The position numbers and the translations under genes are program-made. A stretch of 64,000 bases of DNA from an uncultured Lentisphaerota bacterium. Lineage in GTDB: Bacteria > Verrucomicrobiota > Kiritimatiellia > CAIQIC01. A model generated the notes under the pieces. That model made no database searches. It was not told the DNA's origin and saw only the letters and a program-made list of their open reading frames with translations. How positions within the stretch are numbered: the first letter of the stretch is position 1; every line of letters begins with the position of its first letter. Positions 31,263-57,497 of this stretch are shown here, piece after piece. Location: assembly GCA_903896925.1 (NCBI GenBank), contig CAITZM010000081.1, positions 12,111 to 76,110 of the forward strand. The letters are read 5' to 3'.

Positions 31263-31342
31263 AACCTGAGACCTGAAACCTGGGACCGGACAGCCATGGC
31301 GGCCGGGTGCCAGACCAGGCTGTTGAGTTCCGGATTGTTCCC

Positions 31343-33151: not shown

Positions 33152-33358
33152 GCGCCGGCCGGCCGGCGGAACGTGGCGGCCCTCCCGCGGATGGTTTCCT
33201 TGTACCAGGGCCTTGGGATTCTCTGCGCCGCTGATTATTTGATTGATTGCCGGCCTGCCGGCAGGACATGATAGGCCACCATGTTTACCCAGAACAACAA
33301 CGCGCGTGCTCCCAGGTCTGCGCGGCCGGCGGGCGGGGCTTTCCAAGGTCTGGAAAAT

Positions 33359-35905
33359 ATGAGTTTATTATTTTCCAGGTTTAGAAAGCCGGCCTGGCTT
33401 CTGCTGGTGCTGTGGCCGGTCATGACGGGCGTCCGGGCTTGGGCCGCGGATGAGCAGCCGGAATATGGGCGGGCTGAAGCGGCGGCGGAGCAAGCCCCGG
33501 AACTTTACATCGACTCGCGTGAACTCCTGCAGCAGCTGGAGAAAGAGATCGCCCTCAGCAGCCGGCAGGAACTTCGGGAGGCCCTCCGCCACTACAAAGC
33601 CGGCGAACTGCCGGAGGCGATCGGGGCGTTGGAGGGCTTGCTGGAGCGCGACCCGACGGTGATGACGGCGTGGGACTTCCTCGGCCAAGCCTATTGGAAG
33701 GCTGGGCGGCCGGCGGACGCGTTCAAGTTGTGGGGCAATCTCAAGGTCATCAAGCCGGATTTTTTCCCGCTCTACAACTGGACCGGCCGGGGACACATGC
33801 TGCGGGGCGACTATCCGGCGGCCATCGAAGCTTTCCGCGCCAGCCTGCGGCTGCAGCCGATCCAGGACCGGGACAACACCAAGCTGAACCTCGCGCGGCT
33901 GCTGCGCTGGAGTGGCAACCTGGAGGAGGCGATCACGATGCTGCGGCCCCTGCATCAGGTCGCGCCCCAGAACCAGAGCATCACGCGCGACCTGGCCAGC
34001 GCCCTGCTCTCGAACCGCGAATATGACGAAGCGCTGCCGCTGTGGAGTGCGCTGCAGGCCGGCGAGCCCACGAACCTGTTCTTTCTGGCCAAGGAGGCCG
34101 TGGCTTTGCTGCACACCGGGCACATCACCGAAGCGGTGGCTGGAGCGCGGCGCGTGCTGGCGGAGGACCCCAACAGCCTGGATGCGCTCCGCATCATGGC
34201 GGACGAGACGCAGTTCCATGGCGCCCAGCGGGAGGAGGCGCTGGTCTGGTTGCGGCGGATGATCGATCAAACCACGGCCTTCAAGCTCAAGCGGCAACTA
34301 TCGTTGCGCTACGTGTTCCTGTATACGCAGCTCAAGGGCCAGGCTCCGGAACGTTTCCCCCTCGCCCGGCCGGCCGCCATGCTGGGCCAGCTGGTGGAGG
34401 CCGATCCCTTCGATGTGGATGTCATCATGGCTTATGCCGAAGTGCTCAGCGGCGACCAGCGGTACGCGGAGGCGCGGCAACAGCTGGAGCGTGTGCTCAA
34501 GGAGTTGAATCCCAACAGCGTCCGTGCCCAAAACAACCTGTTTGAAATGGCGCTGGAGGAAAAGAAGTTCCCTGAGGCGCTGGCGCACTATGAGCAGCGC
34601 GCCGCCTTTAACCCGGCGGATCCATATCTGCACTACATGCTGGCCCGCTGGCATGCCGCGCAAGGGCGGTATCCGGCCGCCCACCGGGAACTGGATCAAC
34701 TGGAGGCCGCGGGGCGCCGCGGCGCGGTGGCGGTGCTGCTCTACCATGGTCTGTCCTCCAGCGAGAACGGCGAAGTGCTGCCCGTGGCGCGGTTGCGCGA
34801 GCAGCTGGCGGGGCTCAAGCAGGCGGGTTTCCGCTTCATCGCGGCGCACGAGCTGCCGGCGTATTTCGCCAGGTGCGCCAAGCTGGCCGCGACGCTGGGC
34901 GAGCCCGACCTTGAGCGCGTCGCCTGCGTCACGTTTGACGATGCGCGGCGCGATTCGATGCGCTATGGCACGCCGCTCGGCACCGAGCTGAAAATACCGT
35001 TCTCCATGCATGTCCCCGTGGGCTACGTGTTGCAGCGGCACCCGTTCATCTGCACCTGGGAGATGCTGCGCGAATACCAGCAGGCGGGTTGCTGGCACTT
35101 CGGCGGGCACACCCTGTACGCACACGACCGCGTGCCGATCGACGCGGCGCAGCGCCTGGGCTTTGCGCTGCCCAACCATCTCTGGCTCGCGCCGGCCCAG
35201 CGGCTGGAAACGGACGCGGAGTATGCGGCGCGGCTGACGCGTGAATATGACGAGTGCCACGACCTGCTCATCCGGCAGCTCGGCCACACCAACGAGTGCA
35301 ACTTCTTCGCCTATCCCTTCGGGGACATCGGCCAGATCACGCGCAATAATGACAGCGCTGCGCCCCGCAAGAATCTGGAGCATGCCGCCCGTTCCTACGC
35401 GGTGGGCTTTATCCAGACCGGCTATGGCTATGCCGTCGCCGGCGACCACCCGCTGCTGCTGCAGCGCTATGAGCCCGACCGCAACGATTCCGCCGAGGCC
35501 GTGCTCGAACATGTGCTCGACAGGCATCCGGTCCAGTTGGCTCGCCGCTTGCGCGCCCAGTTTGCCGCCCTGGAGGATAAACGGCATCTGTTGTTGGGCA
35601 CCTTGCGCGCCATGCAGAAGGATGGATATCCGGAGCCGTTCTTCCAGAAGCTGGTTTTAGACCTCGAGGGGAAGCTCGGCCGCCACATCCCGGTGGCTGA
35701 AATCGAACGCGCCGAACCCGCGGCGCCCGTGAAGATCGCGCCGGAGGCGGCGCAGCCGCCCCCGAAACCGCCGGAAAAACCCGTTGCTGTCGTGATGCCG
35801 GCCCCGGCCGAAAAGCCGGTGGCACCCAGCCAGCCCAGGCGCCGGCCGGCGGATTTCGAGGCGGGACGGTCCGGCTTGCGCGATTTACACAATCCGTTGA
35901 AATAA
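33359..35905 (+). CDS. secreted TPR-repeat + polysaccharide deacetylase (CE4/NodB-like) protein, paralog 1
   Basis: Signal peptide, then at least 8 TPR-like repeats. Deacetylase-type domain follows (AVAVLLYHGL, VTFDDARRDS, FSMHVPVG, YPFGDIGQ). Pro/Ala-rich C-terminal tail. Confidence 0.65.
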   Translation: MSLLFSRFRKPAWLLLVLWPVMTGVRAWAADEQPEYGRAEAAAEQAPELYIDSRELLQQLEKEIALSSRQELREALRHYKAGELPEAIGALEGLLERDPTVMTAWDFLGQAYWKAGRPADAFKLWGNLKVIKPDFFPLYNWTGRGHMLRGDYPAAIEAFRASLRLQPIQDRDNTKLNLARLLRWSGNLEEAITMLRPLHQVAPQNQSITRDLASALLSNREYDEALPLWSALQAGEPTNLFFLAKEAVALLHTGHITEAVAGARRVLAEDPNSLDALRIMADETQFHGAQREEALVWLRRMIDQTTAFKLKRQLSLRYVFLYTQLKGQAPERFPLARPAAMLGQLVEADPFDVDVIMAYAEVLSGDQRYAEARQQLERVLKELNPNSVRAQNNLFEMALEEKKFPEALAHYEQRAAFNPADPYLHYMLARWHAAQGRYPAAHRELDQLEAAGRRGAVAVLLYHGLSSSENGEVLPVARLREQLAGLKQAGFRFIAAHELPAYFARCAKLAATLGEPDLERVACVTFDDARRDSMRYGTPLGTELKIPFSMHVPVGYVLQRHPFICTWEMLREYQQAGCWHFGGHTLYAHDRVPIDAAQRLGFALPNHLWLAPAQRLETDAEYAARLTREYDECHDLLIRQLGHTNECNFFAYPFGDIGQITRNNDSAAPRKNLEHAARSYAVGFIQTGYGYAVAGDHPLLLQRYEPDRNDSAEAVLEHVLDRHPVQLARRLRAQFAALEDKRHLLLGTLRAMQKDGYPEPFFQKLVLDLEGKLGRHIPVAEIERAEPAAPVKIAPEAAQPPPKPPEKPVAVVMPAPAEKPVAPSQPRRRPADFEAGRSGLRDLHNPLK

Positions 35906-35980
35906 AAAGCAACTCATGAGCGGACTTCCGCAGGGTAAACCAGGTTCGCAGCAGCAGGGCGCCAGAAAGCCCGGTGAGGG

Positions 35981-38386
35981 ATGAGGCAAGTCGCGTCCGG
36001 CGGCGGTTTCAGGGACTTGCTTTTGCGGGGTGGGGTGCGCCTCCGGTTCTGGACCGTAGTCTGTTTATCGACAGGACTGCTGGGGGGCCGGGCTCAGGAG
36101 CAGCTGGATTATGCGCAGGCGGAAGCCGGGACGTTGGGGGGCTATTATCACGCCATGCCGGACGAGACGGAGCCGCAGCTGCGGCAGGAGCTGGGCATCA
36201 ACGACAGCGTGTACCCCGTGCTTAAGCAGGCCCGGGCCGCTTTTGAGGACAGGCGCTGGGCGGCCGCGATCAGCGTGTTGGAGAGCTTGCTGGAACATTC
36301 ACCGGAGGTCATGCCGGCGTGGGATGTGTTGGGCGATGCCTACTGGATGTCCGGGCGGCAGGATGACGCGCTGAAGTTGTGGAACCGGCTGATCGCCATC
36401 CGGCCCGATTTTGCGCCGGTCTACGGCTGGCTGGGGCGCGCGTATCTGTCGCGTGGTGAGTCCGGACCCGCGCGTCTGGCGTTCCAAAAAGGCTTGGAGC
36501 TCGGTGGCCTGAAGGGGATGGAGCGGTTGAATTATGCGCGGGTCTTGCGCTGGAGCGGCGATCATGAAGCGGCGGCGGAATTGTTGCGGCCCATGGCTCA
36601 AGAACATCCGGACCGGTTGAGCGTGGTGTTGGAACTGGCCAGCGCACTGTTGTCCAACCGCGACTATGCGGAAGCGTTGCCCTGGTGGCAGCTCCTGCAA
36701 AAAGCCGAGCCGGCCAACCTCATCATCCGGGCGCGCGCCGCCATGGCCCTGTTGCATACCGGCCATGTCCAGGAGGCGCTCACCCAGGCGCGAGCGGTGC
36801 TGGCCGAAAACGCACGGGATGTGAACGCCCTCGGCGTTCTGGCCGACCACGCCCAGTTCCGTGGCGGACAGCCCGCCGAGGCCCTGCCCTGGTTGCAGCA
36901 AATGATGGCAGCGACCGATGCGCCCGTGCGGCAGCGGCAATTTACGCTGCGTTATGTCAATCTATACAGCGCCCTGCACTACAAGGACCCGGCGCGCTAT
37001 CCGTTGGCGGTGGCGGTGACCATGCTGCAGAAGCTGGTCACGCGGGAGCCGGCCGACTCGGATTTGCGGCTGGCGCTCGGCGAGCTGCTGATGATGTCCG
37101 AACGTTTTCCCGAGGCGCGCGAACAGTTCGGGTGGGTGCTGGAGCGGCTGAATCCCGGCAACATCCGGGCGCTGCGCAATCTGTTTGAGATCGCCCTGGC
37201 CGAGGGCCGGCACGCTGAGGCGCGAGCGTATCTGGACCGCAAGCTGGCCTTCAACCCGCTGGACCCCTACCGCCATTATCTGCTGGCGCGGTGGTATGCG
37301 GCGCAGGAGAACTATCCCAAGGCCCAGGCGGAGGCGGATGAACTGGAGGCCGCAGGCTTGCGCGGCGCGGTGGCCGTGTTGTTGTATCACGGCTTGTCCA
37401 GCAGCGAAAACGGGGTGCTCCTGCCGGCCAAGCTGTTCCGCGAGCATTTGCTGGCCCTGCGCCAGGCGGGCTTCCGCTTTGTGACCGCCCCCAAATTGAC
37501 GGCGACCTTGGCGGCGGGGGGCCAGGCGCCACAACGCTTTGTGGACGCACGCGTGGACCGTGCCGTCTGCGTGACCTTTGATGATGCGCGGCGCGACAGC
37601 CTGCGGTACGGCACCCCGGTGGGCCGCGAGCTGGGCCTGGTTTTTTCCATGCATATCCCCGTGGGCAATGTAGAGATGAAACACCCGTTCATTTGTACGT
37701 GGAACCAATTGCGCGACTACCAAAAAAACAAGTGCTGGCTGTTTGGCGGGCACTCGTTTGACGCCCATGAACGCACGGCGGTAGACGCCGAGCAGCATCT
37801 GGGCTTTGCCCTGGCCAACCATCGGTGGCTGGCCAAGGCCGGCCGGGTGGAGACCCCTGAGGAATATGCTCTCCGCCTCGAGCGGGAATATGGCGACAGC
37901 CGCGCCAAAATTGCGAGCGAACTGGGGCTGGGGCAGCCGTGTAACTTCATGGCCTATCCGTTCGGCGATATCGGGCAGCTCGCGGTCAGCAATGACCCGG
38001 ACGCGCCGCGCATGAACCTGGAGCAGTGTCGCCGGACGTTCAGCACGGGCTTCATCCAGAGCGCCTACGGCTATGCGCTGGCGGATGACAATCCGCTGCT
38101 CTATCAGCGTCTGGAGCCGGAGCGCATGGCCAGCGGGGCGGACGTCGTCCGGCAGATCCTGGAAAATCATCCGGTCAACATGGCCCGCCGGTTGCGCGCC
38201 GAATGTTCCGCGGCCCAGGGCAAACGGCATGCCGTGATCGACACGTTGCGCGTGTTGGCCCGCGATGGCTACCCGCCGGACACCTTGCGCAACCTGCGGA
38301 CCAGCCTTGAGCACAAGCTCGGGCGCGGCTTGGCGGTCCCCGAGCTGGATGACGAGTCCGCACCTGCCAGAACTGCCGCGCCGTGA
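35981..38386 (+). CDS. secreted TPR-repeat + polysaccharide deacetylase (CE4-like) protein, paralog 2
   Basis: Same architecture and motifs as paralog 1 (AVAVLLYHGLSSSENG, VTFDDARRDSLRYGTP, YPFGDIGQ). Tandem duplicate. Confidence 0.65.
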   Translation: MRQVASGGGFRDLLLRGGVRLRFWTVVCLSTGLLGGRAQEQLDYAQAEAGTLGGYYHAMPDETEPQLRQELGINDSVYPVLKQARAAFEDRRWAAAISVLESLLEHSPEVMPAWDVLGDAYWMSGRQDDALKLWNRLIAIRPDFAPVYGWLGRAYLSRGESGPARLAFQKGLELGGLKGMERLNYARVLRWSGDHEAAAELLRPMAQEHPDRLSVVLELASALLSNRDYAEALPWWQLLQKAEPANLIIRARAAMALLHTGHVQEALTQARAVLAENARDVNALGVLADHAQFRGGQPAEALPWLQQMMAATDAPVRQRQFTLRYVNLYSALHYKDPARYPLAVAVTMLQKLVTREPADSDLRLALGELLMMSERFPEAREQFGWVLERLNPGNIRALRNLFEIALAEGRHAEARAYLDRKLAFNPLDPYRHYLLARWYAAQENYPKAQAEADELEAAGLRGAVAVLLYHGLSSSENGVLLPAKLFREHLLALRQAGFRFVTAPKLTATLAAGGQAPQRFVDARVDRAVCVTFDDARRDSLRYGTPVGRELGLVFSMHIPVGNVEMKHPFICTWNQLRDYQKNKCWLFGGHSFDAHERTAVDAEQHLGFALANHRWLAKAGRVETPEEYALRLEREYGDSRAKIASELGLGQPCNFMAYPFGDIGQLAVSNDPDAPRMNLEQCRRTFSTGFIQSAYGYALADDNPLLYQRLEPERMASGADVVRQILENHPVNMARRLRAECSAAQGKRHAVIDTLRVLARDGYPPDTLRNLRTSLEHKLGRGLAVPELDDESAPARTAAP

Positions 38387-38464
38387 AGCGCGCCCGGCCC
38401 GCGCTGGTCCGAATTTATTCTTGCGAACGGTGGTTTTATGAGCGAGGATTCGCAAAACTAAGAG

Positions 38465-41400
38465 GTGCGTGTGATACATCCGCGAGCCGTATTGAGCCTG
38501 AATTTTGTCAGCGTGAGTCTGGGGTCTTTGGTGCTGCTGCTGGCTGCGCAAGCGCAAACGCCGTCAGCCGGGCGCGCGGCCCTGGCCCAGAAGGCGGTCC
38601 CGCCGCCGGCCGCACCTGTGTCGTTCATTTTGAAGCCCCTCAGCCCGGCAGTCGCGGTTCCGACCAACGCCCCGGTCAGGTCCGAGCTTCCTGCTGTCGA
38701 GGCCCCGGTGGCCGTTGCCCCGACCAATGCGCCCGTCAAGTTTGAAGGGCGTTCGGAGCTGGCCGATATCCAGGATGATTTGGCGGCAGGACGACAGAAG
38801 CAGGCCATCGCCAAGCTGGAGGCGGTCATCGTCAGGAATCCCGGCATGCACCGTGCGTGGGAACTGCTCGGCTGGACCTATTGGCAGGCCGGGCGGCAGG
38901 ATGACGCCATAAAGCTGTGGGAAAAATTACGCGAGCTGGATCCGGGCTTGCCCACGGCCTACAACATGCTGGGGCAGGCCTATTCCTCGCGCAACGAGCT
39001 GAACAAAGCGGCCGCCAGTTTCCTCAAGAGCCTGAGCCTGAATCCCGACCAATATGAGGTGTCGTTTGGCCTGGCGCGCATTTACCGGTGGATCGGCGAA
39101 ACGGATCGGTCCATCGAGATGTTTCGTGCGCTGTTGGTCAAGGATCCGCAACGGGTGGATGTGCAGCGGGAACTGGCCCGCGCGCTGATGGACAACCGGA
39201 ATTACGATGAAGCCGCGCCCCTGTGGGCCGAGGCCGTGCGGGCCAGTCCCACGAACGAAGAATTCATGATCCGGCAGGCCGTCGCCCTGTTGCATACCGG
39301 GCATATCAAGGAAAGCCAGGACATGGCCGCCAAGGTGCTGGAGCGCGATCCGACCAATGTGCAGATTTATCTGGTGCAGGCCGACATGGCGCAGCGCAGC
39401 GAGCATCCTGAGGAGGCGCTGGAACCTTTGCGGAAGATTGTGCAAGTGGCGAAGGATGACCTGCAACGGCGCCAGGCCCGTACGCGTTTGATCCGCTTGT
39501 TGGTGAGCATCCACAAGCGGGCCTCGTTGAAGCCTTCGCTGAGCGAGCCCGTCCGGCTGGTGCGCGACATCCTGCACGAAACGCCCAACAACGTGGACGC
39601 CAACCTGATGCTGGGCGAATTGCTGTTGCTGGACGGGAAACTGGACGATGCCGAGCGCCTGTTCCTGCATGTGCTGAAGAATTACAACGTCGGCAACCAG
39701 CGGGCGCGGCGCGACCTGTTCGAAACCTATACCGCCATGCGCCGCTATACGGACGCCAAGCAGCAATACAAGATCATCGAGGCGTTCAACCCCCAGGACC
39801 CCTTCCTGTTTGTCCGGCAGGCGCGCCTCGAAGAATGCCGGGGGAATTATAGCGGCATGGACAAGGCGTTGAAAAAGCTGGAAAGTTCAGCCAATGCCGG
39901 CGCCGTCGCCGTGCTGATCTATCACGGTTTGACGACCAGCGAATGGTTGGATATCACCTCGGTGCACCAGTTCCGGCAGCATCTGACGGCGCTGAAAAAA
40001 GCGGGCTTCCGCTTTATAACACCGGATGAGATCCCCGCCTATTTCGCCAAGCAGGGCAAGGCCAGTCCTGAATCGCGGCGTGCCGTGCCGGAGCGGGTGG
40101 TGTGCGTGACCTTCGACGATGCGCGTCGGGATGCCATGGCTCTGGCTACGCCCATCGCCCGCGAGTTGGGGGTCAGGCTCGCCATGCACGTCCCCGTGAC
40201 CGCGATCGAGCACAACGAGCCGTTTATGTGCACCTGGGATATGCTGCGGGAATATCAGAAATCAGGCTGCTGGGCGCTGGGGAGCCACATGCTGGATGCA
40301 CACGACCCGTCGCCTGTCGATGCCCAAGGGGAGGAGAAAGTTTATCCTGCGACCAGCCGCCTGTGGCTCGCAGGTCAGAACCGGCTGGAGACGCCGGAAG
40401 AATTCCAGACGCGACTCCATCTGGAATATACCGAAAGCCGTAAAGTCATGGAAGCGAAGCTGGGCCGGCCGGTGACGTTCATCGCCTATCCCTTCGGCGA
40501 CATCGGCCAGGAAACTTTTGCCAACGTGGACGATGCCTTTGCCGAGAATCTGCGCCAAGCCGGCGCGGTCTATGCGGTGGGCTTCATTCAAAATACGCAC
40601 GGTTATGCGGTGAACGGAGACAATCCGCTGCTGTATCAGCGCTACGAGGTGGAGCGGGATGTCACGAGCACGGAGCTCGTGGAACACCTGCTCGACAACC
40701 ATCCTTACTATCTGGCCCTGGCCATGCGCGCCCAGATGGCGGCGCTCTCCGGCAAGGTGTATCTCGCGAAAGAACTGCTGGAGGAACTCAAGCAGAGCGG
40801 CTATCCGGAAGCGCTCCAGGTGAAAATGGAGCAACAGGTCCAGGAGCACCTCGCCGGCCGGTATGCGGCCGACGCCAAGACGGAGATGGCCGATAAAAGC
40901 CCCCTGCAGATCCAGTTGGCGCATCCCTACGTGGGTGTGCATGGCGAGTATTTTCAGGACAACCTGGATTCGCGCAACTGGCGGATTTACGGGTTGGGCG
41001 GCCTGAACCTCACGCCCAATTTGAAGGTTGAAGGGCGCGCCGGTGCGGGGCAGATGCGCCAGCCCATGACCAACAGCTTGCCGCCCTTCCCGACGCCGCC
41101 GCCCATCCCGGACATCAAATTGACCGAGAAGATGGCTGGCGTGGCGCCCGCGTTCACCTTCCCCAACGGTTGGGTGTTGATGGGTGAATTGTCCGGTCGT
41201 AATTTCTCGGGCGATGTGCCCACCGACCTGAACGGGAAAACCAAAGCCTTTGACAAAACAGTCATCCAGTACGCGGTCGAGGGCCAGGCCAAGCCGCTCC
41301 TCCCTCTGGATATCGCCGCCCGTTGGGAGCATGATGTGATGCCGAATGCCCGCGAGGTCGTCAATGAAACCACCTACAACCTGGCCTCGGTCAACGCAGT

Positions 41401-41938
41401 GTACAGCCTGTATGATTCGTGGAGCCTGTGGGGTTCGGGGCAGCATTATGCGATCTCGGATGGCAACAAGCGCGATCATCTGGCCCTGAGTTCCGATTGG
41501 CTGGTCTGGGAGGAAATCGGGTTGCATGCCGGCCTGCGTTACGCCTATGCCAACGCCAGCACGCCTAGCTCCGACTACTGGACACCCTATCGCCTGAACC
41601 GGTATTTGGCGGAATTGGGCTTGCGCGGCAATTACCTGCGGGCGATCTACCATCTGCGACTGCACGCCGGCATCGGCAAGCAGAGCGTGCGGACCGAGTC
41701 GGAACAGCGCTACCAGGATCTGTTAAAAGTGGCGCAGACCCAGCACTGGCCGCAGAGCGCCGTCGATCAACTGATGGCCACCAAGCCGGAGGAAAAATGG
41801 CAGGCCGCGGTGGGCGTCAGTGCCTCCAGCGTCATCAAGCTGACAGGGAACTGGGATGCTGATTTTGAGGTCTCCTACAACAAGGTGCCGGATTACAATG
41901 AGCTCACCGTGACGGCCGGTGTGAAATACAACTTCTAA
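38465..41938 (+). CDS. secreted TPR + CE4-like deacetylase + C-terminal outer-membrane beta-barrel fusion protein (PgaA-like plus PgaB-like in one chain), 1157 aa
   Basis: Signal peptide, TPR region and deacetylase motifs (AVAVLIYHGL, VTFDDARRDA, YPFGDIGQ). The last 330 aa or so show alternating amphipathic beta-strands ending ..TAGVKYNF with a terminal Phe. Confidence 0.6.
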   Translation: MRVIHPRAVLSLNFVSVSLGSLVLLLAAQAQTPSAGRAALAQKAVPPPAAPVSFILKPLSPAVAVPTNAPVRSELPAVEAPVAVAPTNAPVKFEGRSELADIQDDLAAGRQKQAIAKLEAVIVRNPGMHRAWELLGWTYWQAGRQDDAIKLWEKLRELDPGLPTAYNMLGQAYSSRNELNKAAASFLKSLSLNPDQYEVSFGLARIYRWIGETDRSIEMFRALLVKDPQRVDVQRELARALMDNRNYDEAAPLWAEAVRASPTNEEFMIRQAVALLHTGHIKESQDMAAKVLERDPTNVQIYLVQADMAQRSEHPEEALEPLRKIVQVAKDDLQRRQARTRLIRLLVSIHKRASLKPSLSEPVRLVRDILHETPNNVDANLMLGELLLLDGKLDDAERLFLHVLKNYNVGNQRARRDLFETYTAMRRYTDAKQQYKIIEAFNPQDPFLFVRQARLEECRGNYSGMDKALKKLESSANAGAVAVLIYHGLTTSEWLDITSVHQFRQHLTALKKAGFRFITPDEIPAYFAKQGKASPESRRAVPERVVCVTFDDARRDAMALATPIARELGVRLAMHVPVTAIEHNEPFMCTWDMLREYQKSGCWALGSHMLDAHDPSPVDAQGEEKVYPATSRLWLAGQNRLETPEEFQTRLHLEYTESRKVMEAKLGRPVTFIAYPFGDIGQETFANVDDAFAENLRQAGAVYAVGFIQNTHGYAVNGDNPLLYQRYEVERDVTSTELVEHLLDNHPYYLALAMRAQMAALSGKVYLAKELLEELKQSGYPEALQVKMEQQVQEHLAGRYAADAKTEMADKSPLQIQLAHPYVGVHGEYFQDNLDSRNWRIYGLGGLNLTPNLKVEGRAGAGQMRQPMTNSLPPFPTPPPIPDIKLTEKMAGVAPAFTFPNGWVLMGELSGRNFSGDVPTDLNGKTKAFDKTVIQYAVEGQAKPLLPLDIAARWEHDVMPNAREVVNETTYNLASVNAVYSLYDSWSLWGSGQHYAISDGNKRDHLALSSDWLVWEEIGLHAGLRYAYANASTPSSDYWTPYRLNRYLAELGLRGNYLRAIYHLRLHAGIGKQSVRTESEQRYQDLLKVAQTQHWPQSAVDQLMATKPEEKWQAAVGVSASSVIKLTGNWDADFEVSYNKVPDYNELTVTAGVKYNF

Positions 41939-45933: not shown

Positions 45934-45957
45934 CAGCGTCTCCTCGCGGTGTGGTTT

Positions 45958-46257: not shown

Positions 46258-46292
46258 GGCTCACCTCTTTGTTCATCCTGCTCAGGCAGTCT

Positions 46293-46722: not shown

Positions 46723-49305
<2,583 letters not shown>

Positions 49306-49328
49306 ACACTTGTCCCTGCTCATATCCA

Positions 49329-51927: not shown

Positions 51928-54900
51928 TCACAGCTTCAGGATGGCGACTTTCGCGGGCGGCAGGTCGGCCAGGGGTTTGTGCGTGCCCGGCGGGGTGTCC
52001 CACTGCTGCACGATCGCTTCCTGCGTGCCTTCACTGCCGGTGGAAAGGAGATCTGATCCGGCCGCCATCCCACGGACTTGTGCCGTACCCTTGTCGGGCG
52101 TCAGCGCCGCAGCCACCAACTTGATATTTGAATGGCCCAAACTGCGCTCCATGGTGTCGAACCAGGTTTTGTCCGGCAGGGCGGGGAAGAGCAAGATGAA
52201 GCCATCGACTCTGTACTTGGCGGCCGCACCAATGAGGTCCTCGGCGCGCAGCGCGGCGCCGGGTTCTACGGTTACGGCCGGCATCAGGCGGATGCGGTGG
52301 TAACGCGTAAATAGGCGCAGCAGCTGGTCTTCGCTGCCGATGCTGGGCTGCCAAACGCCTTCTGCACTGATATTGAACCACGCGGGCGCCATGTCCGTGA
52401 CGCGATCGATTTCCGGGCGTACGGCCGCGAGGGCGGTGTCGAGCATGGCCTCGCTCTTGATGCCAGGCAGCAGGAGCATGCGGGGCGCCAACGGGCCGGC
52501 GCTGGCGCGCTCCATGACGACCTGGGCCTTGCCCAGCTCAGCGCTGAAGGCCGCCAGACCGAGCCAGCCGAGATCGAAGTCGGCCGGAACTTCGAGGGGC
52601 GAGGAGAACGCGGGCTGGTCGTTTATATAACCCATCAGACCTTCACCTCGCACCTCCAGGCGCAGGCGCACGGCGGCTTTCGTATCGGGCCACGGGCGGC
52701 TGCGTTGATCCACAATGTGGTTGTTGCGCCAGAGCTGCAGGTAGATGGTGCCGGATTCATCCCAGCCAAAGCGCACCATGTGCTCGGACGTGCGGCGCGC
52801 ATAGAGCCAGAAGGCACCCAGTTTCCGCTGGACCACGCCCTCCACGTAGGCGTCGCGGAAGTGTTCGGAACCCAGCAGGCGCATGGTGGCCTCGCTATGG
52901 GTGTCGTCGGAATGGATCAGCAGTTTGCCGGATTCGGCCTTGAAGACGCCGCCATCCAGCCACCAAGCCGGGGATATTTTACCGCCGGCGAAGTTTTCGG
53001 AGACCTGGTCTTTGCGCGGCAACAAGCGCTCGTAGAGCGTCGCGATGCGTGCATCCTTGGTTTGCGCAGCGATCTGCTGGACGAGTTTCACGAGGGCTCG
53101 GCTGCCGGGCAGGCTGAACAGGTCATACTTCCAGATGGCTTGTCCCAGTTCATACTGGAACTCGGGCTGCGCCCCGATGCGTGCCAAGGTTCCCATCTGC
53201 GTGCGATAATCAGCAGGGGCGATAGGCAGCCGCAACATGAAGGCCACAGCCTCGAAATTATTGGTATCCACCTGGATGATGTGCTGCACGATCGGGATGG
53301 CTTCGGCGCTGCGGTCATGCCGGCGCAGCCATTCCGCCTGTGCGAGCATGATGCTGGTGTTGTCCGGGAACAAGCGGGCGTAAATGTTAAGCTCGTTCAT
53401 CGCTTCTTCAATGCGGCCGGCGGTATCCAGCAGGCCGGCGCGGCGCAGGGCCAGCCGAATCTGCCCCGGGTCCAGATCCAAGCTCGTGGAGTAGTTGGTC
53501 AGGGCCTGTTTGAGGTCACCCAGCCGCAGGAAGGCATCGCCGATCAGCATGGGCGGCCGGGGGTTGTTGGGCTCCGCGGCGAACCATTGCTGCCAGAGCG
53601 TGACGGCTTTGCTGTAGTCGCCATCCATGAAGGCCGCCTGGCCGTCCTGCAGCAGTCGGGATGTCTTGAAAACCGAGGAGGTCAGGCTTTGGTTTTCGGC
53701 CATGGCGTTCAGCTCATAGAACATGGGCATGTCCTTGTCCTGGTCGGGAATCGGCACCTGCTCCAGTTTCGCCGTGGGCACGCTCGGGCCTTTGGGCGTG
53801 ATCGCACGCAAAGGCGAACCCGGCTCGGCCACAACCTGGATGGAAGGGATCACGGCCAGCAGGGAGCGCACAAAAACCGGGGTTTCCAGCGAGGGGGGCA
53901 GCCGCACCTTCAGTTCCAAGCCGCGCGCGCGCAGGTCGTTGGCACATTGCTGCAGCCAGGTCATAATGCGGGTCGTCGTCGGCTTCTGCATCTCGTCCAT
54001 CGTGACAAACATGCCCTGCGCTTTGATCTCGGAGAGCTTGTCGGCCAGTTGGGAGGGCGTCACGCGCGTCAGCGACTGCTCGTCGCCGATGTTGACGCGC
54101 GGCAACAAGCGGAAGTGATACATGCGGGCGATCATCGCGTAGGCGGTCGAATCCCAGACGCTCTTCAGCATCTGCCCGGAGGGTGAGAAGTTGATCCAGG
54201 ACGGGCTGATGTCCGTCAAACTATAAGCATGTTGATGGATCCAGCGAAACACGCCGGCATCATGCTGGCTGGAGCGGGAATCCCATGTGGCGACCGACCG
54301 TTCCGGCGGTTTGAGCGTGACCTCGGAGATGGTCACTTTCGCGCGGCCCTTGTCGGCCTGCCAGATGCTCAAGCCGATCATGCCGGGCTTCATGTCGCCG
54401 CGCAGGAGCACCCGCTCGGAGAAGATGGGTTTGCCATCCAGGCGCGCAAACAGGAGCGGGCCGCGGGCGTTGATGTCCAGCACATGTTCGCCCTTGGTGG
54501 CATCCACGTTCACATGCGACGAAGCGAGTGTGAACCGTTCCAGCGTGGCTTGTTTTTGCCGCAGCCACACGCCCATGTCCAAGCTTTCCTCGGCTTCCAT
54601 GCGCGTCGCGTCCTGCCCGAATTTGGTCTGCCGCAAACAGGCGGTGCCTTTGGAGTCCAGTCCGAGGTAGACGTACGATTCCTCGTCGGCCGCGGCGCGG
54701 GCATAGATGCCCAACTGGCCGCTGAGCTGGCTGAACACCACGCGGGAGTAGAAATCCTTGGTCAAATCGCTGCCCGCCAGCCACATTTTGGCGCCGGTGT
54801 TTTGTTCCGGCGCATAGAGGGTCATGCCGGCTTTGTCGTCTTTCACCGCGCCCCAGTCCACGATCCAGGCCGCGGCGATGCGCGAGGTGTTGGTGACGGA

Positions 54901-55920
54901 TGAGATGGATTCGTCCACCGGCCAGGAGCGGTCCAGGAAGTCCACCAGGTCCTCTCCGGACCATTCCGGTTTTACGCGCAGCCGGTTGAGCCGCTTCGGA
55001 TCGCTATAGCGGGTGTTGACGGACAGGTTGCCGGTCAAGAACCCCAGGCTGTAATACTTGCTCGCCAGCTGCAGGTTGACCAGGCGGGCGAATACGGCGC
55101 GCGATTCAAACTGGCCGAAGTCGCCATAGGGATAGGCGTACGCCTTGGGCTTGATCCCGGTCTTCTTCTCGATGACCTGCAGGCAGGCCTCATGATCCTG
55201 CGCCAACCGGTCGGCGAACTCGGCCGGGGTCTCGAACCGATTCTCCTCCGCCAGCCATTTGGCGGTGGTCATGAAATGCCCCAGATAGCCCTGCTGGCTG
55301 GCCGGGACCGCCGCAAAACCATTGAAGCTTTGCGCGCCCAGTTCCCAGGTGCCCGACCGCGACATGATCTGTATGTAGGGCCACAGCAAAGCGGCAGGAT
55401 CCTTGTCGATGATCGGATGGGTCCACAGGAACATCACGGCTTTCCAGCCCGCGCTCTTGAGGATGGGGTCCGCCGCGAAATACGAACTCTTCCGGCCGTG
55501 ATCGAAGGTCAGCAGCACGGACTTTTGGGGTACAGGCTTGCCTTCGTAAAGCAACTGGCGCACATCCTCCAGTTGGATCGGCACATAGCCCCGGCTCCGC
55601 AGTTCCTTCAGGTGCTCCGTGAACAAGGCGGTATTGACCTCGTTGGTGCGCTGCGAAACGCCCTCGTAGGCCAGCGCCACAAAGGCGTACGAGGTGCGCG
55701 GCCCGGCTTTGACGTCGGGATACATCCAGTGTGAAATCAGGGCCCGCAGGGGGAAATACCAGGCCACCACCAGGCAGAGCACAATCATGAAGTGCATCCA
55801 CGAGGAGGTGTAGACCACGGTGACCGGCTGAATAATCGTCCGCCCCCCGGCGCCATCTCCGCCGCTCTTCGGCGGGGTTTGGTCGGGCGTGGACTGCGGC
55901 GCTTGCGGCTTCGTAATCAT
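51928..55920 (-). CDS. large membrane-anchored multidomain exopolysaccharide-modifying protein (TM helix, CE4-like deacetylase, TPR region, further carbohydrate-active-like domains), about 1330 aa
   Basis: Start ATG overlaps the synthase stop (ATGA at 55917-55920). TM helix WMHFMIVLCLVVAWYF. Deacetylase-like block VLLTFDHGRKSS...YAYPYGDFGQ echoes the paralogs at 33-42 kb. TPR-like repeats around TLWQQWFAAEPNN..DAFLRLGDLKQALTNY. The ORF could extend to 56274 but would then overlap the synthase by 357 nt. Confidence 0.6.
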   Translation of the reverse strand: MITKPQAPQSTPDQTPPKSGGDGAGGRTIIQPVTVVYTSSWMHFMIVLCLVVAWYFPLRALISHWMYPDVKAGPRTSYAFVALAYEGVSQRTNEVNTALFTEHLKELRSRGYVPIQLEDVRQLLYEGKPVPQKSVLLTFDHGRKSSYFAADPILKSAGWKAVMFLWTHPIIDKDPAALLWPYIQIMSRSGTWELGAQSFNGFAAVPASQQGYLGHFMTTAKWLAEENRFETPAEFADRLAQDHEACLQVIEKKTGIKPKAYAYPYGDFGQFESRAVFARLVNLQLASKYYSLGFLTGNLSVNTRYSDPKRLNRLRVKPEWSGEDLVDFLDRSWPVDESISSVTNTSRIAAAWIVDWGAVKDDKAGMTLYAPEQNTGAKMWLAGSDLTKDFYSRVVFSQLSGQLGIYARAAADEESYVYLGLDSKGTACLRQTKFGQDATRMEAEESLDMGVWLRQKQATLERFTLASSHVNVDATKGEHVLDINARGPLLFARLDGKPIFSERVLLRGDMKPGMIGLSIWQADKGRAKVTISEVTLKPPERSVATWDSRSSQHDAGVFRWIHQHAYSLTDISPSWINFSPSGQMLKSVWDSTAYAMIARMYHFRLLPRVNIGDEQSLTRVTPSQLADKLSEIKAQGMFVTMDEMQKPTTTRIMTWLQQCANDLRARGLELKVRLPPSLETPVFVRSLLAVIPSIQVVAEPGSPLRAITPKGPSVPTAKLEQVPIPDQDKDMPMFYELNAMAENQSLTSSVFKTSRLLQDGQAAFMDGDYSKAVTLWQQWFAAEPNNPRPPMLIGDAFLRLGDLKQALTNYSTSLDLDPGQIRLALRRAGLLDTAGRIEEAMNELNIYARLFPDNTSIMLAQAEWLRRHDRSAEAIPIVQHIIQVDTNNFEAVAFMLRLPIAPADYRTQMGTLARIGAQPEFQYELGQAIWKYDLFSLPGSRALVKLVQQIAAQTKDARIATLYERLLPRKDQVSENFAGGKISPAWWLDGGVFKAESGKLLIHSDDTHSEATMRLLGSEHFRDAYVEGVVQRKLGAFWLYARRTSEHMVRFGWDESGTIYLQLWRNNHIVDQRSRPWPDTKAAVRLRLEVRGEGLMGYINDQPAFSSPLEVPADFDLGWLGLAAFSAELGKAQVVMERASAGPLAPRMLLLPGIKSEAMLDTALAAVRPEIDRVTDMAPAWFNISAEGVWQPSIGSEDQLLRLFTRYHRIRLMPAVTVEPGAALRAEDLIGAAAKYRVDGFILLFPALPDKTWFDTMERSLGHSNIKLVAAALTPDKGTAQVRGMAAGSDLLSTGSEGTQEAIVQQWDTPPGTHKPLADLPPAKVAILKL

Positions 55921-57497
55921 CTCGTCCCCCATGTAGTTCTGCGCATCGTGGCAAAGGCGTAATAGCCCTGCCAGCTGAAAAAGAAAACGTAAGTCAAAAC
56001 AAAGATGAACCCGGTCCACCAATGCCGCCGGCCGGTTTTTTCCAAATAGTAGAGCGACCACAGCAGGGTCACGACCAACACGCCGCCAATATAGAAACCA
56101 GGGAGGCGGTGCATGGCCAGCGGCGCCATGATGAGCGCGTTGAACATCACGAGCGGCGCAATCGTCGGCAGAATGGTCATGGCGTACCAGGAGATGGCCG
56201 CCACAGGATGCTTGCGCCACATAAACTGACCGGCGAGAAACATCTCCCGCCCCCACGAGCGTTTCCAGCGGCACTGCTGGTTGACATATTTGCGCCAGTC
56301 TTCCGGCACGATCGTGGTGGCGAGCGCCTCGTCGTCATAGAGGATGCGGTAGTTCTTCAGCAGCATGTTCGTCAGTGCGCGGTCATCTCCGAACGTCGCG
56401 TAGTTGCCCAGAAATTTCTGGTAGAGCCACTTGTCGAGCACGTGCAGCACGCACGATTTACGGTAGGCCGAGAAGCAGCCCGGGCAGCAGCTGACCGCGC
56501 CGAACAGGCTCTCCGCGGCCTTCATTACGCGATAGGATACGAAGTAGCGCACGTCCTGCATCTTGGTCAGGACATTGACCTCCACGTTTTCCACATCGGT
56601 GTGTCCGGCCACGGCCGCGACGGTGGGATCCACCAGCCCTTGCACCACCTTGTGGATGGAGCCCGGCAAGAGAAAGCTGTCGGAATCCACATAGACCAGC
56701 ACTTCGCTGCGCGCCAGCCGTGCGCCCACCGCCATGCCATGGCGCTTGCCCTTGTTCTGCTCGAAATCCACGACGATCAGGCTGGGGTGCCGGGCTTGGG
56801 CGCGCATCATGTCAGCCAGGGTGTTGTCGGTGGAGCCGTCATTCACGGCGACCACTTCCAGCTTGGAATGCGGATAGCCTTCGCCATAGATCCGGCCGAT
56901 GGTTTTCTCGATGGAGCCTTCTTCGTTGCGACAGGCCACGATCACGGCCACCGTGGGTTCGTAGCCGACATCGGACGGGGCCATGTAGAAGGCGGCCAGG
57001 AAAAACCTGGAAAGAATGAATACGCCCACGGTCAGGCTGTAGAGGTTGACCAGCGGTTGATACCAGTAATAGGTCAGATTGTGGAGTTTCAGGAAAACGG
57101 CCAGGGCCAGGAGCAGGATGATCGCGAAAATGAGGAAGATAGCCACCGGCTTGGCGGGTTGGCGATAATTCTCGGAGCCCGCGCGAGCTTCGAACATGTT
57201 CGCAGGCTCAGGGCTGGCTGGCGGGACCACAAACGTCTCCCGCGTCATGCGTGCCTGGCAAAACGGGCAGACCATAGGGGAGGGGGCACGGATGACCCGT
57301 ATCCCCAGCAAGCAATGCGGACAGTAATCGGTAGTGCCGGTTAAGCGTTCCGTCGCCAACGTGCTGCCCTGAAGGCGCACGGCTGTCTCCACCGCTAAAC
57401 TATTGGCTCCACTTTGAAGCGGCGCCGACGAAGCAATGACCATATGCCCTCTTGTTCTATTTCGATTATACTGTATACGAAGAGCGTTCAAACGCAA
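55917..57497 (-). CDS. membrane-embedded processive family-2 glycosyltransferase (PgaC/IcaA/BcsA-like polysaccharide synthase) with an N-terminal zinc-ribbon
   Basis: GT2 DxD region (VNDGSTDNT, YVDSDS), the QCRWKRSW signature (QxxRW) and flanking TM helices. The N-terminus carries CPHC...CPFC. Confidence 0.75.
   Translation of the reverse strand: MRLNALRIQYNRNRTRGHMVIASSAPLQSGANSLAVETAVRLQGSTLATERLTGTTDYCPHCLLGIRVIRAPSPMVCPFCQARMTRETFVVPPASPEPANMFEARAGSENYRQPAKPVAIFLIFAIILLLALAVFLKLHNLTYYWYQPLVNLYSLTVGVFILSRFFLAAFYMAPSDVGYEPTVAVIVACRNEEGSIEKTIGRIYGEGYPHSKLEVVAVNDGSTDNTLADMMRAQARHPSLIVVDFEQNKGKRHGMAVGARLARSEVLVYVDSDSFLLPGSIHKVVQGLVDPTVAAVAGHTDVENVEVNVLTKMQDVRYFVSYRVMKAAESLFGAVSCCPGCFSAYRKSCVLHVLDKWLYQKFLGNYATFGDDRALTNMLLKNYRILYDDEALATTIVPEDWRKYVNQQCRWKRSWGREMFLAGQFMWRKHPVAAISWYAMTILPTIAPLVMFNALIMAPLAMHRLPGFYIGGVLVVTLLWSLYYLEKTGRRHWWTGFIFVLTYVFFFSWQGYYAFATMRRTTWGTR

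What the first reader, a model, noticed from the sequence alone, without database searches (positions are those of the whole stretch)
33359..41938. Tandem array of three secreted TPR + CE4-deacetylase proteins, the last fused to an outer-membrane beta-barrel
In synthase-dependent EPS systems (Pga, Pel), the TPR-porin export scaffold (PgaA, PelB) and the periplasmic deacetylase (PgaB, PelA) are separate proteins.
- Here the TPR scaffold and a NodB-like deacetylase domain are fused, repeated three times in tandem and co-directional.
- Only the third copy carries a C-terminal beta-barrel ending in Phe.
- One polypeptide could therefore couple deacetylation to export. The two barrel-less paralogs may act as periplasmic partners or substrate-specific variants.
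- This architecture is not standard and may represent an undescribed variant of the PNAG/Pel export machinery.
Basis: partly seen in the sequence, partly recalled or inferred. Interest (0 to 1): 0.8.

Follow-up and report, generated by a model that had tools for sequence, protein, structure and literature searches.

The report
Sugar-polymer export pore with built-in deacetylase
Three neighbouring genes encode secreted repeat-scaffold proteins that each carry a PgaB-like sugar deacetylase, and the third ends in an outer-membrane pore of the type that exports biofilm polysaccharides, so an enzyme and an export channel that are separate proteins in the studied systems are one chain here, in a widespread but unstudied protein family.

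Summary
A (33359-35905), B (35981-38386) and C (38465-41938) are co-directional paralogues. Each has a signal peptide, about 11 TPR repeats and a PgaB/IcaB-type CE4 domain with all five catalytic or metal residues.

- **Synthase link.** The window also holds a HAS/NodC-like GT2 synthase and an inner-membrane protein (D) with a degenerate CE4 domain, about 10-14 kb downstream. In 24 of 41 related loci these genes lie within about 7 kb of the C-type gene.
- **Not recent duplicates.** A and B belong to an old barrel-less clade (100% bootstrap). The A-B-C array recurs with 1:1 orthologues at about 70% identity in another metagenome.
- **Not unique.** At least 160 protein clusters, mostly from PVC-group MAGs, share TPR-CE4-barrel. 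All carry generic names, and I found no paper describing it.

Verdict: a new variant of synthase-dependent exopolysaccharide export. Function is inferred, not shown. Interest is moderate.

The parts
33359..35905 (+). Gene A: secreted TPR + CE4 protein without a barrel (848 aa). It has a signal peptide (…VRAWA|ADEQ), TPR repeats, a CE4 domain and a Pro-rich tail.
   Evidence: ORF and translation. Pfam TPR families and Polysacc_deac_1 at 26.4 bits against a 23.1 cut-off. Motifs YHG, TFDDARRD, GGHTLYAHD and AYPFGD. Orthologues in L009 (71%), L058 (67%) and L006.
35873..35902 (+). Conserved C-terminal peptide of A-type proteins, GLRDLHNPLK, following a Pro-rich linker of about 60-100 aa.
   Evidence: The same ending, L[HR][ND]PL[KR]*, occurs in L006, L009, L039, L048 and L058. 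Its function is unknown.
35981..38386 (+). Gene B: second TPR + CE4 protein without a barrel (801 aa). It has no Pro-rich tail and no terminal motif.
   Evidence: ORF and translation. Pfam TPR families; Polysacc_deac_1 only 14.6 bits. It is 55% identical to A and 44% to C over CE4, with TFDDARRD, GGHSFDAHE and AYPFGD intact. A 1:1 orthologue at 70% identity is in L058.
38465..41938 (+). Gene C: TPR + CE4 + outer-membrane beta-barrel protein (1157 aa).
   Evidence: An identical protein, P0001, is held in NCBI/ENA assemblies.
38750..39895 (+). C: TPR superhelix, 22 helices (aa 96-477).
   Evidence: AF2 secondary structure. Pfam TPR_19, TPR_16, TPR_2 and others. Foldseek hits to the OGT and SPY TPR domains.
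39902..40654 (+). C: CE4 de-N-acetylase domain of PgaB/IcaB type (aa 480-730). Key residues are H487, D551, D552, H608 and H613.
   Evidence: Pfam 36.4-39.7 bits. PDB sequence hits IcaB 4wcj, BpsB 5bu6, PgaB 4u10 and 3vus, with aligned TFDD and H-x4-H motifs. Foldseek TM 0.77-0.83.
40667..40852 (+). C: four-helix connector between CE4 and the barrel (aa 735-796), followed by a low-confidence linker (aa 800-816). A and B also have this connector.
   Evidence: AF2 model. Alignment of the A and B tails.
40919..41935 (+). C: 16-stranded beta-barrel porin (aa 819-1157) with a helical insert between strands 13 and 14 and a C-terminal Phe.
51928..55932 (-). Gene D: single-pass inner-membrane protein (about 1334 aa) with a degenerate PgaB-like CE4 domain, unassigned domains and TPRs. 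It is the likely periplasmic partner of C.
   Evidence: Pfam and NCBIfam, PgaB N-domain 99 bits. PDB hit 3vus E 5e-21, with catalytic residues replaced (AYEG, TFDH, GAQSFNGF). The same replacements occur in 21 orthologues. One TM segment at aa ~44-62. It sits next to C-type genes in relatives.
55917..57497 (-). Processive GT2 synthase of HAS/NodC/chitin-synthase type, overlapping the start of D. Its true start may be the ATG at 57443.
   Evidence: Pfam Glycos_transf_2 and Chitin_synth_2. NCBIfam NodC 167 bits and PgaC 121 bits, both below cut-off. PDB hyaluronan synthase 7sp7 E 8e-32. QQCRWKRSW motif in the translation. Hydrophobic segments predicted at aa ~112-173 and ~432-485.
57947..60141 (+). 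Response-regulator receiver (57947-58309), KaiC-like ATPase (58345-59277) and AAA_22 ATPase (59278-60141). This module is conserved beside the GT2-D operon.
   Evidence: Pfam. tblastn of the L059 receiver protein. KaiC-like and AAA_22 co-occur in L004, L007, L010, L016, L020, L029 and L059.

Best explanation
C is the outer-membrane export and modification subunit of a synthase-dependent exopolysaccharide system. A and B are its soluble periplasmic paralogues.

Proposed path:
1. The HAS/NodC-like GT2 synthase (55917-57497) polymerises a GlcNAc-containing glycan and threads it across the inner membrane.
2. The inner-membrane-anchored protein D, whose CE4 domain has lost its catalytic residues, binds and guides the chain in the periplasm.
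3. The TPR superhelix of C receives the chain.
4. The CE4 domain of C, wedged between the TPR array and the pore, removes some N-acetyl groups.
5. The chain leaves through C's 16-strand PgaA/BcsC/PelB-type barrel.

This is a covalent version of the PgaB-PgaA and PelA-PelB complexes. A and B keep a full catalytic set and would add deacetylase capacity or a different specificity, probably by docking through their TPRs or A's conserved tail.

Shown here: the domain content, the folds, the intact catalytic residues, the barrel class and the conserved gene neighbourhood. Inferred: the polymer identity, enzyme activity, localisation, protein contacts and the roles of A and B.
For: - **Domains and folds.** Pfam and NCBIfam. 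AF2 model at pLDDT 80 with 22 TPR helices, a CE4 domain and 16 strands. Barrel-only model at pLDDT 88, pTM 0.81.
- **CE4 type.** The significant PDB sequence hits of the CE4 domain (E below 0.001) are all PNAG deacetylases, IcaB and PgaB/BpsB. TFDD and H-x4-H align to PgaB D114/D115 and H184/H189. Foldseek TM to PgaB is 0.77-0.79.
- **Catalytic set.** H487, D551, D552, H608 and H613 are present in A, B and C.
- **Synthase.** QQxRW motif, best PDB hit hyaluronan synthase at E 8e-32, NodC, PgaC and Chitin_synth_2 hits.
- **Synteny.** A GT2 homologue lies within 7.3 kb in 24 of 41 related loci that have at least 6 kb of flank. D is usually 100-700 nt from the C-type gene. This includes distant Phycisphaerales, Omnitrophota and Proteobacteria loci.
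- **D is degenerate.** Its CE4 is degenerate in 21 of 21 orthologues examined. Within this window's cluster, A, B and C therefore carry the only complete CE4 catalytic sets.
- **No other porin.** No other candidate outer-membrane pore was found beside GT2-D among the genes scanned here.
- **A and B are maintained.** A-B-C recurs with 1:1 orthologues at 67-70% identity in L058. The barrel-less clade has 100% bootstrap support.
- **Literature.** Binding of modification enzymes to the TPRs of the porin is described as a common feature of these pathways (PMC12022489).
Against: - In this window the three genes are not next to the synthase. About 9.6 kb of unrelated genes (Usp, hybrid kinase, P-type ATPase, LysR) intervene. 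In the closest relative (L009) no GT2 or D lies within 10 kb.
- Several related loci have no GT2 within the sequence held.
- Only 72 of 138 family representatives keep all five catalytic residues. 21 have Ser and 6 have Ala at the second His. Catalysis is therefore not universal in the family.
- Scores against PgaA, PgaB and PgaC equivalog models are far below their cut-offs, so this is not a pga system and the polymer is unknown.
- No promoter or terminator signal above chance was found, so operon structure is unproven.
- Every sequence comes from an uncultured organism, and there are no expression or biochemical data.
Confidence: 0.7

Rival explanations
1. The CE4 domains do not catalyse anything. 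They act as glycan-binding modules, so A, B and C are only scaffold and pore, and any deacetylation is done by an enzyme encoded elsewhere.
For: Nearly half of the family representatives lack a complete catalytic set (HDDHS 21, HDDHA 6, and many more degenerate). Close orthologues P0006-P0010 have Ser, and P0017-P0022 have Ala, at the second His. The partner protein D shows that a degenerate CE4 domain can be conserved.
Against: A, B and C in this window, and their 1:1 orthologues, keep all five residues and the PgaB-like H-x4-H spacing. H487, D551, D552 and H608 are invariant across the 24 aligned sequences.
Confidence: 0.15
2. The A-B-C array is functionally unrelated to the GT2-D operon. 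It acts on another glycan, for example peptidoglycan turnover products, or it imports chito-oligosaccharides. The shared window is a coincidence.
For: About 10 kb of unrelated genes separate C from D in this window. Relatives L001, L003, L009 and L019 have no GT2 within 10 kb. In L001 and L058 the downstream neighbours are MBOAT and SGNH-like genes instead.
Against: GT2 and D are neighbours of C-type genes in 24 of 41 loci across several phyla. The barrel matches exporters rather than uptake porins, with a Z gap of 22.5 against 16.6. L059 joins MBOAT, GT2, D and a C-type gene in a single cluster.
Confidence: 0.1
3. A and B are decaying, truncated duplicates of C with no role of their own.
For: They lack the barrel. 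B scores below the Pfam CE4 cut-off.
Against: - Both ORFs are intact, with coding-type GC3 and plausible signal peptides.
- All catalytic residues are kept.
- They form a distinct clade with 100% bootstrap support that is not nested within C's clade. A+B as sisters has 0% support.
- About 25 barrel-less clusters of 800-920 aa exist.
- 1:1 orthologues of A and B sit in the same order in L058.
- A-type proteins share a conserved C-terminal peptide.
Confidence: 0.03
4. C is a Slam-like translocon for surface lipoproteins (TPR + barrel) rather than a glycan porin.
For: Pfam TPR_Slam scores 41.5 bits in C, above its 35.2 cut-off.
Against: That hit lies in a stretch matched far better by generic TPR families. 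The barrel has no DUF560 hit even at E 10. The barrel has 16 strands and matches BcsC, PgaA and PelB. The CE4 domain and the GT2 synteny have no place in a Slam system.
Confidence: 0.02

Closest known systems
PgaA + PgaB of the E. coli pgaABCD PNAG system (and Bordetella BpsA/BpsB)
   Same: - The CE4 domain has PgaB's H-x4-H metal motif, TFDD, and the PgaB-specific helical insert.
- The modification enzyme works at the TPR of the porin (PMC12022489).
   Different: - Here the TPR, deacetylase and porin are one polypeptide.
- No GH153-like C-terminal PgaB domain was detected in A, B or C.
- Equivalog scores are far below cut-off: PgaA 53.7 against 366.65, PgaB 55.3 against 321.9, PgaC 120.7 against 422.3.
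- No PgaD was seen (not searched for).
- The synthase is closer to HAS and NodC.
- There are extra barrel-less paralogues and a pseudo-CE4 inner-membrane partner.
PelB + PelA of the Pseudomonas Pel system
   Different: PelA's esterase domain founds family CE21 and is a separate multi-domain protein (PMC12022489). The domain here is PgaB-type CE4. No PelC-like lipoprotein and no PelDEFG were seen in the window.
BcsC, and the BcsZ-BcsC fusion reported in Zymomonas
   Different: The fused enzyme there is a hydrolase, not a deacetylase, and the polymer is cellulose made by BcsA/BcsB. Here the enzyme is inserted between the TPRs and the barrel.
IcaB-like PgaB clades of Gram-negatives with N-terminal fusions (Bundalovic-Torma et al. 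2020)
   Same: These are PgaB-family CE4 domains without the hydrolase domain, fused to other modules, in operons that lack a recognisable pgaA (PMC7112194). IcaB 4wcj is the best PDB sequence hit for C's CE4.
   Different: The fusions described there are mainly to glycosyltransferase domains at the inner membrane. A TPR-CE4-porin fusion is not mentioned in the passages I read.
Class I hyaluronan synthase / NodC / chitin synthases (for the linked GT2)
   Same: The QQxRW motif, a GT2 catalytic core followed by a membrane channel region, and an E of 8e-32 to Chlorella-virus HAS.
   Different: NodC scores 167 bits against a cut-off of 550. There is an N-terminal Cys-rich extension. The product is unknown.

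Membership tests
CE4 (NodB-fold) polysaccharide deacetylase, PgaB/IcaB subgroup | Pfam PF01522 match above the gathering threshold | tested here: met
   A scores 26.4 bits and C 36.4 bits against a 23.1 cut-off. B scores only 14.6 bits but is 55% identical to A and 44% to C over this domain.
CE4 (NodB-fold) polysaccharide deacetylase, PgaB/IcaB subgroup | Distorted (beta/alpha) barrel fold superposable on solved CE4 enzymes | tested here: met
   Tested for C only. Foldseek TM (target-normalised) is 0.79 to 3vus, 0.77 to 4u10, 0.83 to 6dq3 and 0.68 to 5bu6. A and B were not modelled.
CE4 (NodB-fold) polysaccharide deacetylase, PgaB/IcaB subgroup | Asp-His-His metal triad plus catalytic Asp and His (PgaB D115/H184/H189, D114, H55; numbering from memory of Little et al. 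2012) | tested here: met
   YHG, TFDD and H-x4-H are present in A, B and C, and align to the same motifs of IcaB, BpsB and PgaB. They are not met in D, nor in about half of the wider family.
CE4 (NodB-fold) polysaccharide deacetylase, PgaB/IcaB subgroup | Metal-dependent de-N-acetylase activity | not testable with these tools
   Needs recombinant protein and an assay.
TPR-porin exporters of synthase-dependent EPS systems (PgaA/BcsC/PelB class) | Periplasmic N-terminal TPR array | tested here: met
   Pfam TPR families. 22 helices at aa 96-477 in the AF2 model.
TPR-porin exporters of synthase-dependent EPS systems (PgaA/BcsC/PelB class) | C-terminal 16-stranded beta-barrel similar to the solved exporters | tested here: met
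   [not shown]
TPR-porin exporters of synthase-dependent EPS systems (PgaA/BcsC/PelB class) | C-terminal aromatic residue (outer-membrane insertion signal) | tested here: met
   C ends ...VKYNF. Most of the 162 homologues that match the barrel model end in an aromatic residue, usually Phe.
TPR-porin exporters of synthase-dependent EPS systems (PgaA/BcsC/PelB class) | Genomic linkage to a processive inner-membrane GT2 synthase | tested here: met
   24 of 41 related loci have a GT2 homologue within 7.3 kb. In this window the GT2 is about 14 kb away.
PgaA orthologue (NCBIfam TIGR03939 / PRK10049) | Score above the equivalog cut-off | tested here: not met
   C scores 53.7 bits against 366.65, and 21.8 against 1043.
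PgaB orthologue (TIGR03938) | Score above the equivalog cut-off, with a C-terminal GH153 domain | tested here: not met
   A 31.5, B 34.9 and C 55.3 bits against 321.9. The matches cover only the N-terminal deacetylase part of the model.
pgaABCD operon | PgaC equivalog synthase and PgaD adjacent | tested here: not met
   The GT2 scores 120.7 bits against 422.3 for PgaC, and scores higher for NodC (167 bits). No PgaD-like gene was noted, but PgaD was not searched for specifically.
Slam (surface lipoprotein assembly modifier) | DUF560 14-strand barrel after the TPR domain | tested here: not met
   No DUF560 hit at E up to 10 on the C-terminal 377 aa. The model has 16 strands.

The most novel reading that the evidence does not exclude
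The window carries a self-contained, undescribed synthase-dependent exopolysaccharide system typical of Kiritimatiellia and other PVC bacteria. Its components would be:
- a HAS/NodC-like synthase;
- an inner-membrane pseudo-deacetylase/TPR protein (D);
- an outer-membrane TPR-CE4-porin on which the only active deacetylase has been moved onto the pore polypeptide;
- dedicated soluble TPR-CE4 partners (A and B, with A docking through a conserved C-terminal peptide);
- a receiver/KaiC-like/AAA ATPase control module.

It would make a partly deacetylated, in some species also O-acetylated, GlcNAc-type polymer.
Probability: 0.45. Interest if true: 0.7.

Novelty: new variant of a known kind. Interest (0 to 1): 0.55.

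Why it matters
In the studied synthase-dependent biofilm systems (Pga, Pel, alginate), polymer modification and export are coupled by non-covalent binding of the enzyme to the TPRs of the porin. How that coupling works is still being worked out (PMC12022489).

A natural single-chain TPR-deacetylase-porin is independent, fusion-based evidence for that coupling. It fixes the order of events as TPR, then enzyme, then pore. It also offers a one-protein target for structural work.

The finding points to a large unannotated family, currently labelled 'tetratricopeptide repeat protein', and a conserved gene cluster. These probably account for matrix or capsule production in Kiritimatiellia, Lentisphaerae and Verrucomicrobiota, groups that are abundant in sediments, lakes and guts and have almost no genetics.

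The paired active and degenerate CE4 domains (C against D, and His against Ser or Ala within the family) are a ready-made case of enzyme-to-binding-module evolution.

Tried and rejected
- **Wasted homologue search.** Searching with the C-terminal 390 aa of A returned only 5 hits, probably because the Pro-rich tail dominated the word index.
- **First whole-protein search.** It was swamped by generic TPR proteins and did not return A or B. Repeating it without the TPRs fixed this.
- **The afdb50 library** was not available.
- **Pfam on the unassigned parts of D** (aa 331-750 and 891-1334) found nothing at E up to 1.
- **Promoter and terminator scan** of 33000-42600 gave counts at or below the shuffle expectation, so it says nothing about operon structure.
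- **The 121-aa ORF after C** (41942-42307) has no family hit and an Arg-rich, non-protein-like sequence. I treat it as non-coding.
- **Slam-like translocon reading** rejected.
- **Recent tandem duplication of C** as the origin of A and B rejected.
- **MBOAT, GHL10 and DUF459 genes** found next to C-type genes in L001, L058 and L059 have no homologue in this window.
- **Five literature searches** found no description of a TPR-CE4-porin protein. That covers only the library held here.

Full report
**1. What is in the window**

Three co-directional ORFs occupy 33359-41938 on the + strand.
- B is 35981-38386 (801 aa).
- C is 38465-41938 (1157 aa).

The gaps between them are 75 and 78 nt. The window has about 65% G+C and many spurious long ORFs. 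These three have the third-position GC bias of real genes (0.78-0.82).

The N-termini look like Sec signal peptides, read directly from the sequence:
- A: ...LLLVLWPVMTGVRAWA|ADEQ
- C: ...LVLLLAAQAQ|TPS
- B: a hydrophobic stretch followed by GRAQ

Upstream lie housekeeping genes (aromatic amino-acid synthesis, cmk, MazG, an MFS transporter, CvpA and dnaG at 31307-33151). Downstream lie a Usp protein, a hybrid histidine kinase, a P-type ATPase and a LysR regulator. No glycosyltransferase is adjacent.

**2. Domains**

Pfam finds a dense TPR region in the N-terminal half of all three. It finds Polysacc_deac_1 in A (26.4 bits) and C (36.4 bits), both above the 23.1 cut-off, and in B only at 14.6 bits. 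B is nevertheless 55% identical to A and 44% to C across the CE4 region.

NCBIfam gives only partial, sub-threshold hits to the PgaB deacetylase domain and the PgaA TPRs.

Against solved structures, the significant sequence hits of the CE4 domain (E below 0.001) are all PNAG deacetylases: Ammonifex IcaB 4wcj, Bordetella BpsB 5bu6, Aggregatibacter PgaB 4u10 and E. coli PgaB 3vus/4f9d. The printed alignments place C's VCVTFDDA on PgaB's VVLTFDDG, and C's GSHMLDAHD on PgaB's ASHTWNSHY. This is the Asp-Asp pair and the H-x4-H spacing typical of PgaB. They also share the helical insert that follows.

In an alignment of 24 family members, H487, D551, D552 and H608 (C numbering) are invariant. H613 is His in A, B, C and their closest orthologues, Ser in P0006-P0010 and Ala in P0017-P0022.

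**3. Structure**

An AlphaFold2 model of C built on that alignment has pLDDT 80 and pTM 0.69. It shows:
- 22 TPR helices (aa 96-477);
- an alpha/beta domain (aa 480-730);
- four helices (aa 735-796);
- a disordered linker (aa 800-816);
- 16 beta strands (aa 819-1156), with a helical insert between strands 13 and 14.

Foldseek superposes the alpha/beta domain on PgaB, BpsB and PplD at TM 0.68-0.83.

The barrel therefore belongs to the porin class used by synthase-dependent polysaccharide exporters.

**4. The rest of the system**

About 10-14 kb downstream on the minus strand the window holds a GT2 synthase (55917-57497).
- It has Glycos_transf_2 and Chitin_synth_2 domains.
- Its best curated-model hits are NodC (167 bits) and PgaC (121 bits), both below cut-off.
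- Its best solved relative is hyaluronan synthase (E 8e-32).
- It carries a QQCRWKRSW motif and hydrophobic segments at aa ~112-173 and ~432-485.

Its stop overlaps the start of D (51928-55932, about 1334 aa). D has one N-terminal membrane helix, a PgaB-like CE4 domain (3vus, E 5e-21), about 400 aa of unassigned sequence, TPRs, and another unassigned C-terminal part.

In D the catalytic positions are replaced:
- AYEG in place of YHG;
- TFDH in place of TFDD;
- GAQSFNGF in place of SHxxxxH.

The same pattern holds in all 21 orthologues I extracted. D is therefore most likely a binding module rather than an enzyme. The complete CE4 catalytic sets in this window's cluster are those of A, B and C.

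On the other side of the GT2 lie a receiver domain (57947-58309), a KaiC-like ATPase and an AAA_22 ATPase.

**5. Comparative evidence for the link**

A pattern scan of one genome per species returned 50 loci. Nearly all come from Kiritimatiellia, Lentisphaerae or Verrucomicrobiota MAGs. A few come from Phycisphaerales, Omnitrophota and Proteobacteria.

I ran tblastn with the window's proteins against these and other fetched loci. The layout [C-type gene +][D -, GT2 -][KaiC-like +, AAA_22 +], or part of it, appears in L004, L007, L010, L011, L014, L016, L020, L022, L025, L027-L029, L031, L033, L035, L036 and L043-L047. A co-directional GT2, D-like, TPR-CE4 order appears in the distant L046 and L051-L053, and in L055 with a wider gap before the TPR-CE4 gene.

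Of 41 loci with at least 6 kb of flank, 24 carry a GT2 homologue within 7.3 kb. D usually lies 100-700 nt from the C-type gene.

In L004, whose C-type protein is 71% identical to C overall (79% across CE4), the gene order is C, a small ORF, D, GT2, KaiC-like, AAA_22. This matches the window except for the window's roughly 9.6 kb block of Usp, kinase, ATPase and LysR.

L059 combines, in one cluster, a receiver/KaiC-like/AAA_22 module, DUF459, a C-type gene, a GHL10 hydrolase-like gene, MBOAT, GT2 and D.

This is strong guilt-by-association evidence that C works with the synthase. It is still not proof.

**6. The paralogues**

A and B are 50% identical to each other and 36% identical to C.

I built a neighbour-joining tree of 58 family members over the TPR + CE4 region. 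All barrel-less proteins (A, B, L009a, L039, L040) fall in one clade with 100% bootstrap support, outside C's clade.
- A pairs with its L009 orthologue (100%).
- A+B as sisters receives 0% support.
- C groups with L004, L006 and L009 (100%).

About 25 further barrel-less clusters of 800-920 aa exist.

The array size varies between genomes:
- one gene in most loci;
- an A-type plus a C-type gene in L006, L009 and L010;
- two barrel-bearing copies in L028/L029 and L031;
- three barrel-bearing copies in L025.

In L058 the full A-B-C order occurs with 1:1 orthologues at 67%, 70% and 70% identity. The three-gene array is therefore an old, maintained unit and not a recent amplification.

A-type proteins share a Pro-rich tail that ends in a conserved peptide, GLRDL[HR][ND]PL[KR]. 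B lacks this tail.

**7. How common is the architecture**

An exhaustive HMMER search with CE4 + barrel (C residues 470-1157) against 1.84 billion representative proteins gave 2611 hits at E up to 0.001 and 166 at E up to 1e-30.

Most of these are 1000-1700 aa long and end in an aromatic residue, usually Phe. Some come from Nitrospirales and Binatota.

Every source name is generic: 'tetratricopeptide repeat protein', 'polysaccharide deacetylase family protein' or 'hypothetical protein'.

Among 138 representatives with an aligned CE4 domain, 72 keep all five catalytic residues, 21 have Ser and 6 have Ala at the last His, and the rest are more degenerate.

**8. Literature**

The systematic survey of synthase-dependent operons (PMC7112194) reports IcaB-like PgaB clades fused mainly to glycosyltransferase domains in operons without pgaA, and a BcsZ-BcsC hydrolase-porin fusion. 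The passages I read do not mention a TPR-CE4-porin.

Five full-text searches found no description of the present family.

**9. Interpretation**

The best-supported reading is that C is the outer-membrane subunit of a synthase-dependent exopolysaccharide system, with a PgaB-type deacetylase built into the export scaffold immediately before the pore. It works with the HAS/NodC-like synthase and the pseudo-deacetylase D.

A and B are maintained periplasmic TPR-CE4 partners of unknown specific role.

The polymer is probably GlcNAc-based, judging by the relatives of both the synthase and the CE4 domain. Its linkage and composition cannot be told from sequence.

It is not a pga or pel system by any curated-model criterion. 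I file it as a new variant of a known kind, with confidence of about 0.7 in the mechanism as stated.

**Limits**
- All relatives are uncultured.
- The models rest on shallow alignments (24 and 13 sequences).
- The tree is a simple distance tree.
- Synteny was scored by tblastn.
- No expression or biochemical data exist.

Noticed in passing
window 51928-55932 (-): Protein D carries a PgaB-like CE4 domain in which four of the five catalytic or metal positions are replaced (AYEG, TFDH, GAQSFNGF). The same pattern is conserved in 21 orthologues, so this is a conserved pseudo-deacetylase. About 800 aa of D have no Pfam match.
   Followed up: partly
window 35873-35902 (+); also L006, L009, L039, L048, L058: Barrel-less A-type proteins end in a Pro-rich linker of 60-100 aa followed by a conserved peptide, GLRDL[HR][ND]PL[KR]*. 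B-type proteins lack it. It may be a docking or sorting signal.
   Followed up: partly
family-wide (C residue 613); P0006-P0010, P0017-P0022, 138 representatives: The second metal-binding His of the CE4 domain is Ser or Ala in whole subclades. Only 72 of 138 representatives keep all five catalytic residues. This suggests repeated loss of catalysis within the fusion family.
   Followed up: partly
window 57947-60141 (+): A receiver domain, a KaiC-like ATPase and an AAA_22 (ExeA/TniB-like) ATPase sit beside the GT2-D operon here and in many relatives (L004, L007, L010, L016, L020, L029, L059). They may form a control module for the system.
   Followed up: partly
L001 13430-15803; L058 13419-15770; L059 9231-10004 and 13493-17668: In some relatives the C-type gene is followed by an MBOAT acyltransferase, a roughly 90-aa protein and an SGNH/DUF459 protein, the kind of set that O-acetylates alginate. 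In L059 a GHL10 hydrolase-like gene is also present. The window has no homologue of these.
   Followed up: partly
window 55917-57497 (-), N-terminal ~100 aa: The GT2 synthase has an N-terminal extension with a CPHC...CPFC motif that looks like a zinc ribbon. It lies ahead of the first membrane segments.
   Followed up: no
window 42249-51546: A roughly 9.6 kb block (Usp, hybrid histidine kinase with dCache/PAS/receiver domains, P-type cation ATPase, LysR regulator) separates C from D. It is absent at this position in L004, L007 and L010. G+C drops from about 0.69 upstream to about 0.60 across 38-46 kb.
   Followed up: partly
L025 2158-13552; L028/L029; L031 5263-13600: Other Kiritimatiellia genomes carry tandem arrays of two or three family members that all keep the barrel. 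These copies are lineage-specific duplicates (100% bootstrap).
   Followed up: partly
window 41942-42307 (+): A 121-aa ORF directly after C is Arg-rich, has no family hit and looks non-coding. Relatives have unrelated small ORFs at this position.
   Followed up: partly
window 14759-18526 (+): Two adjacent phosphoglucomutase/phosphomannomutase-family paralogues (14759-16114 and 16164-17552) are followed by an omptin-family outer-membrane protease (17549-18526). The mutases could feed sugar-nucleotide supply.
   Followed up: no
L004 8353-9822; L031 13625-14878: Some relatives have a second paralogous GT2 synthase directly flanking the C-type gene, in addition to the one paired with D.
   Followed up: no
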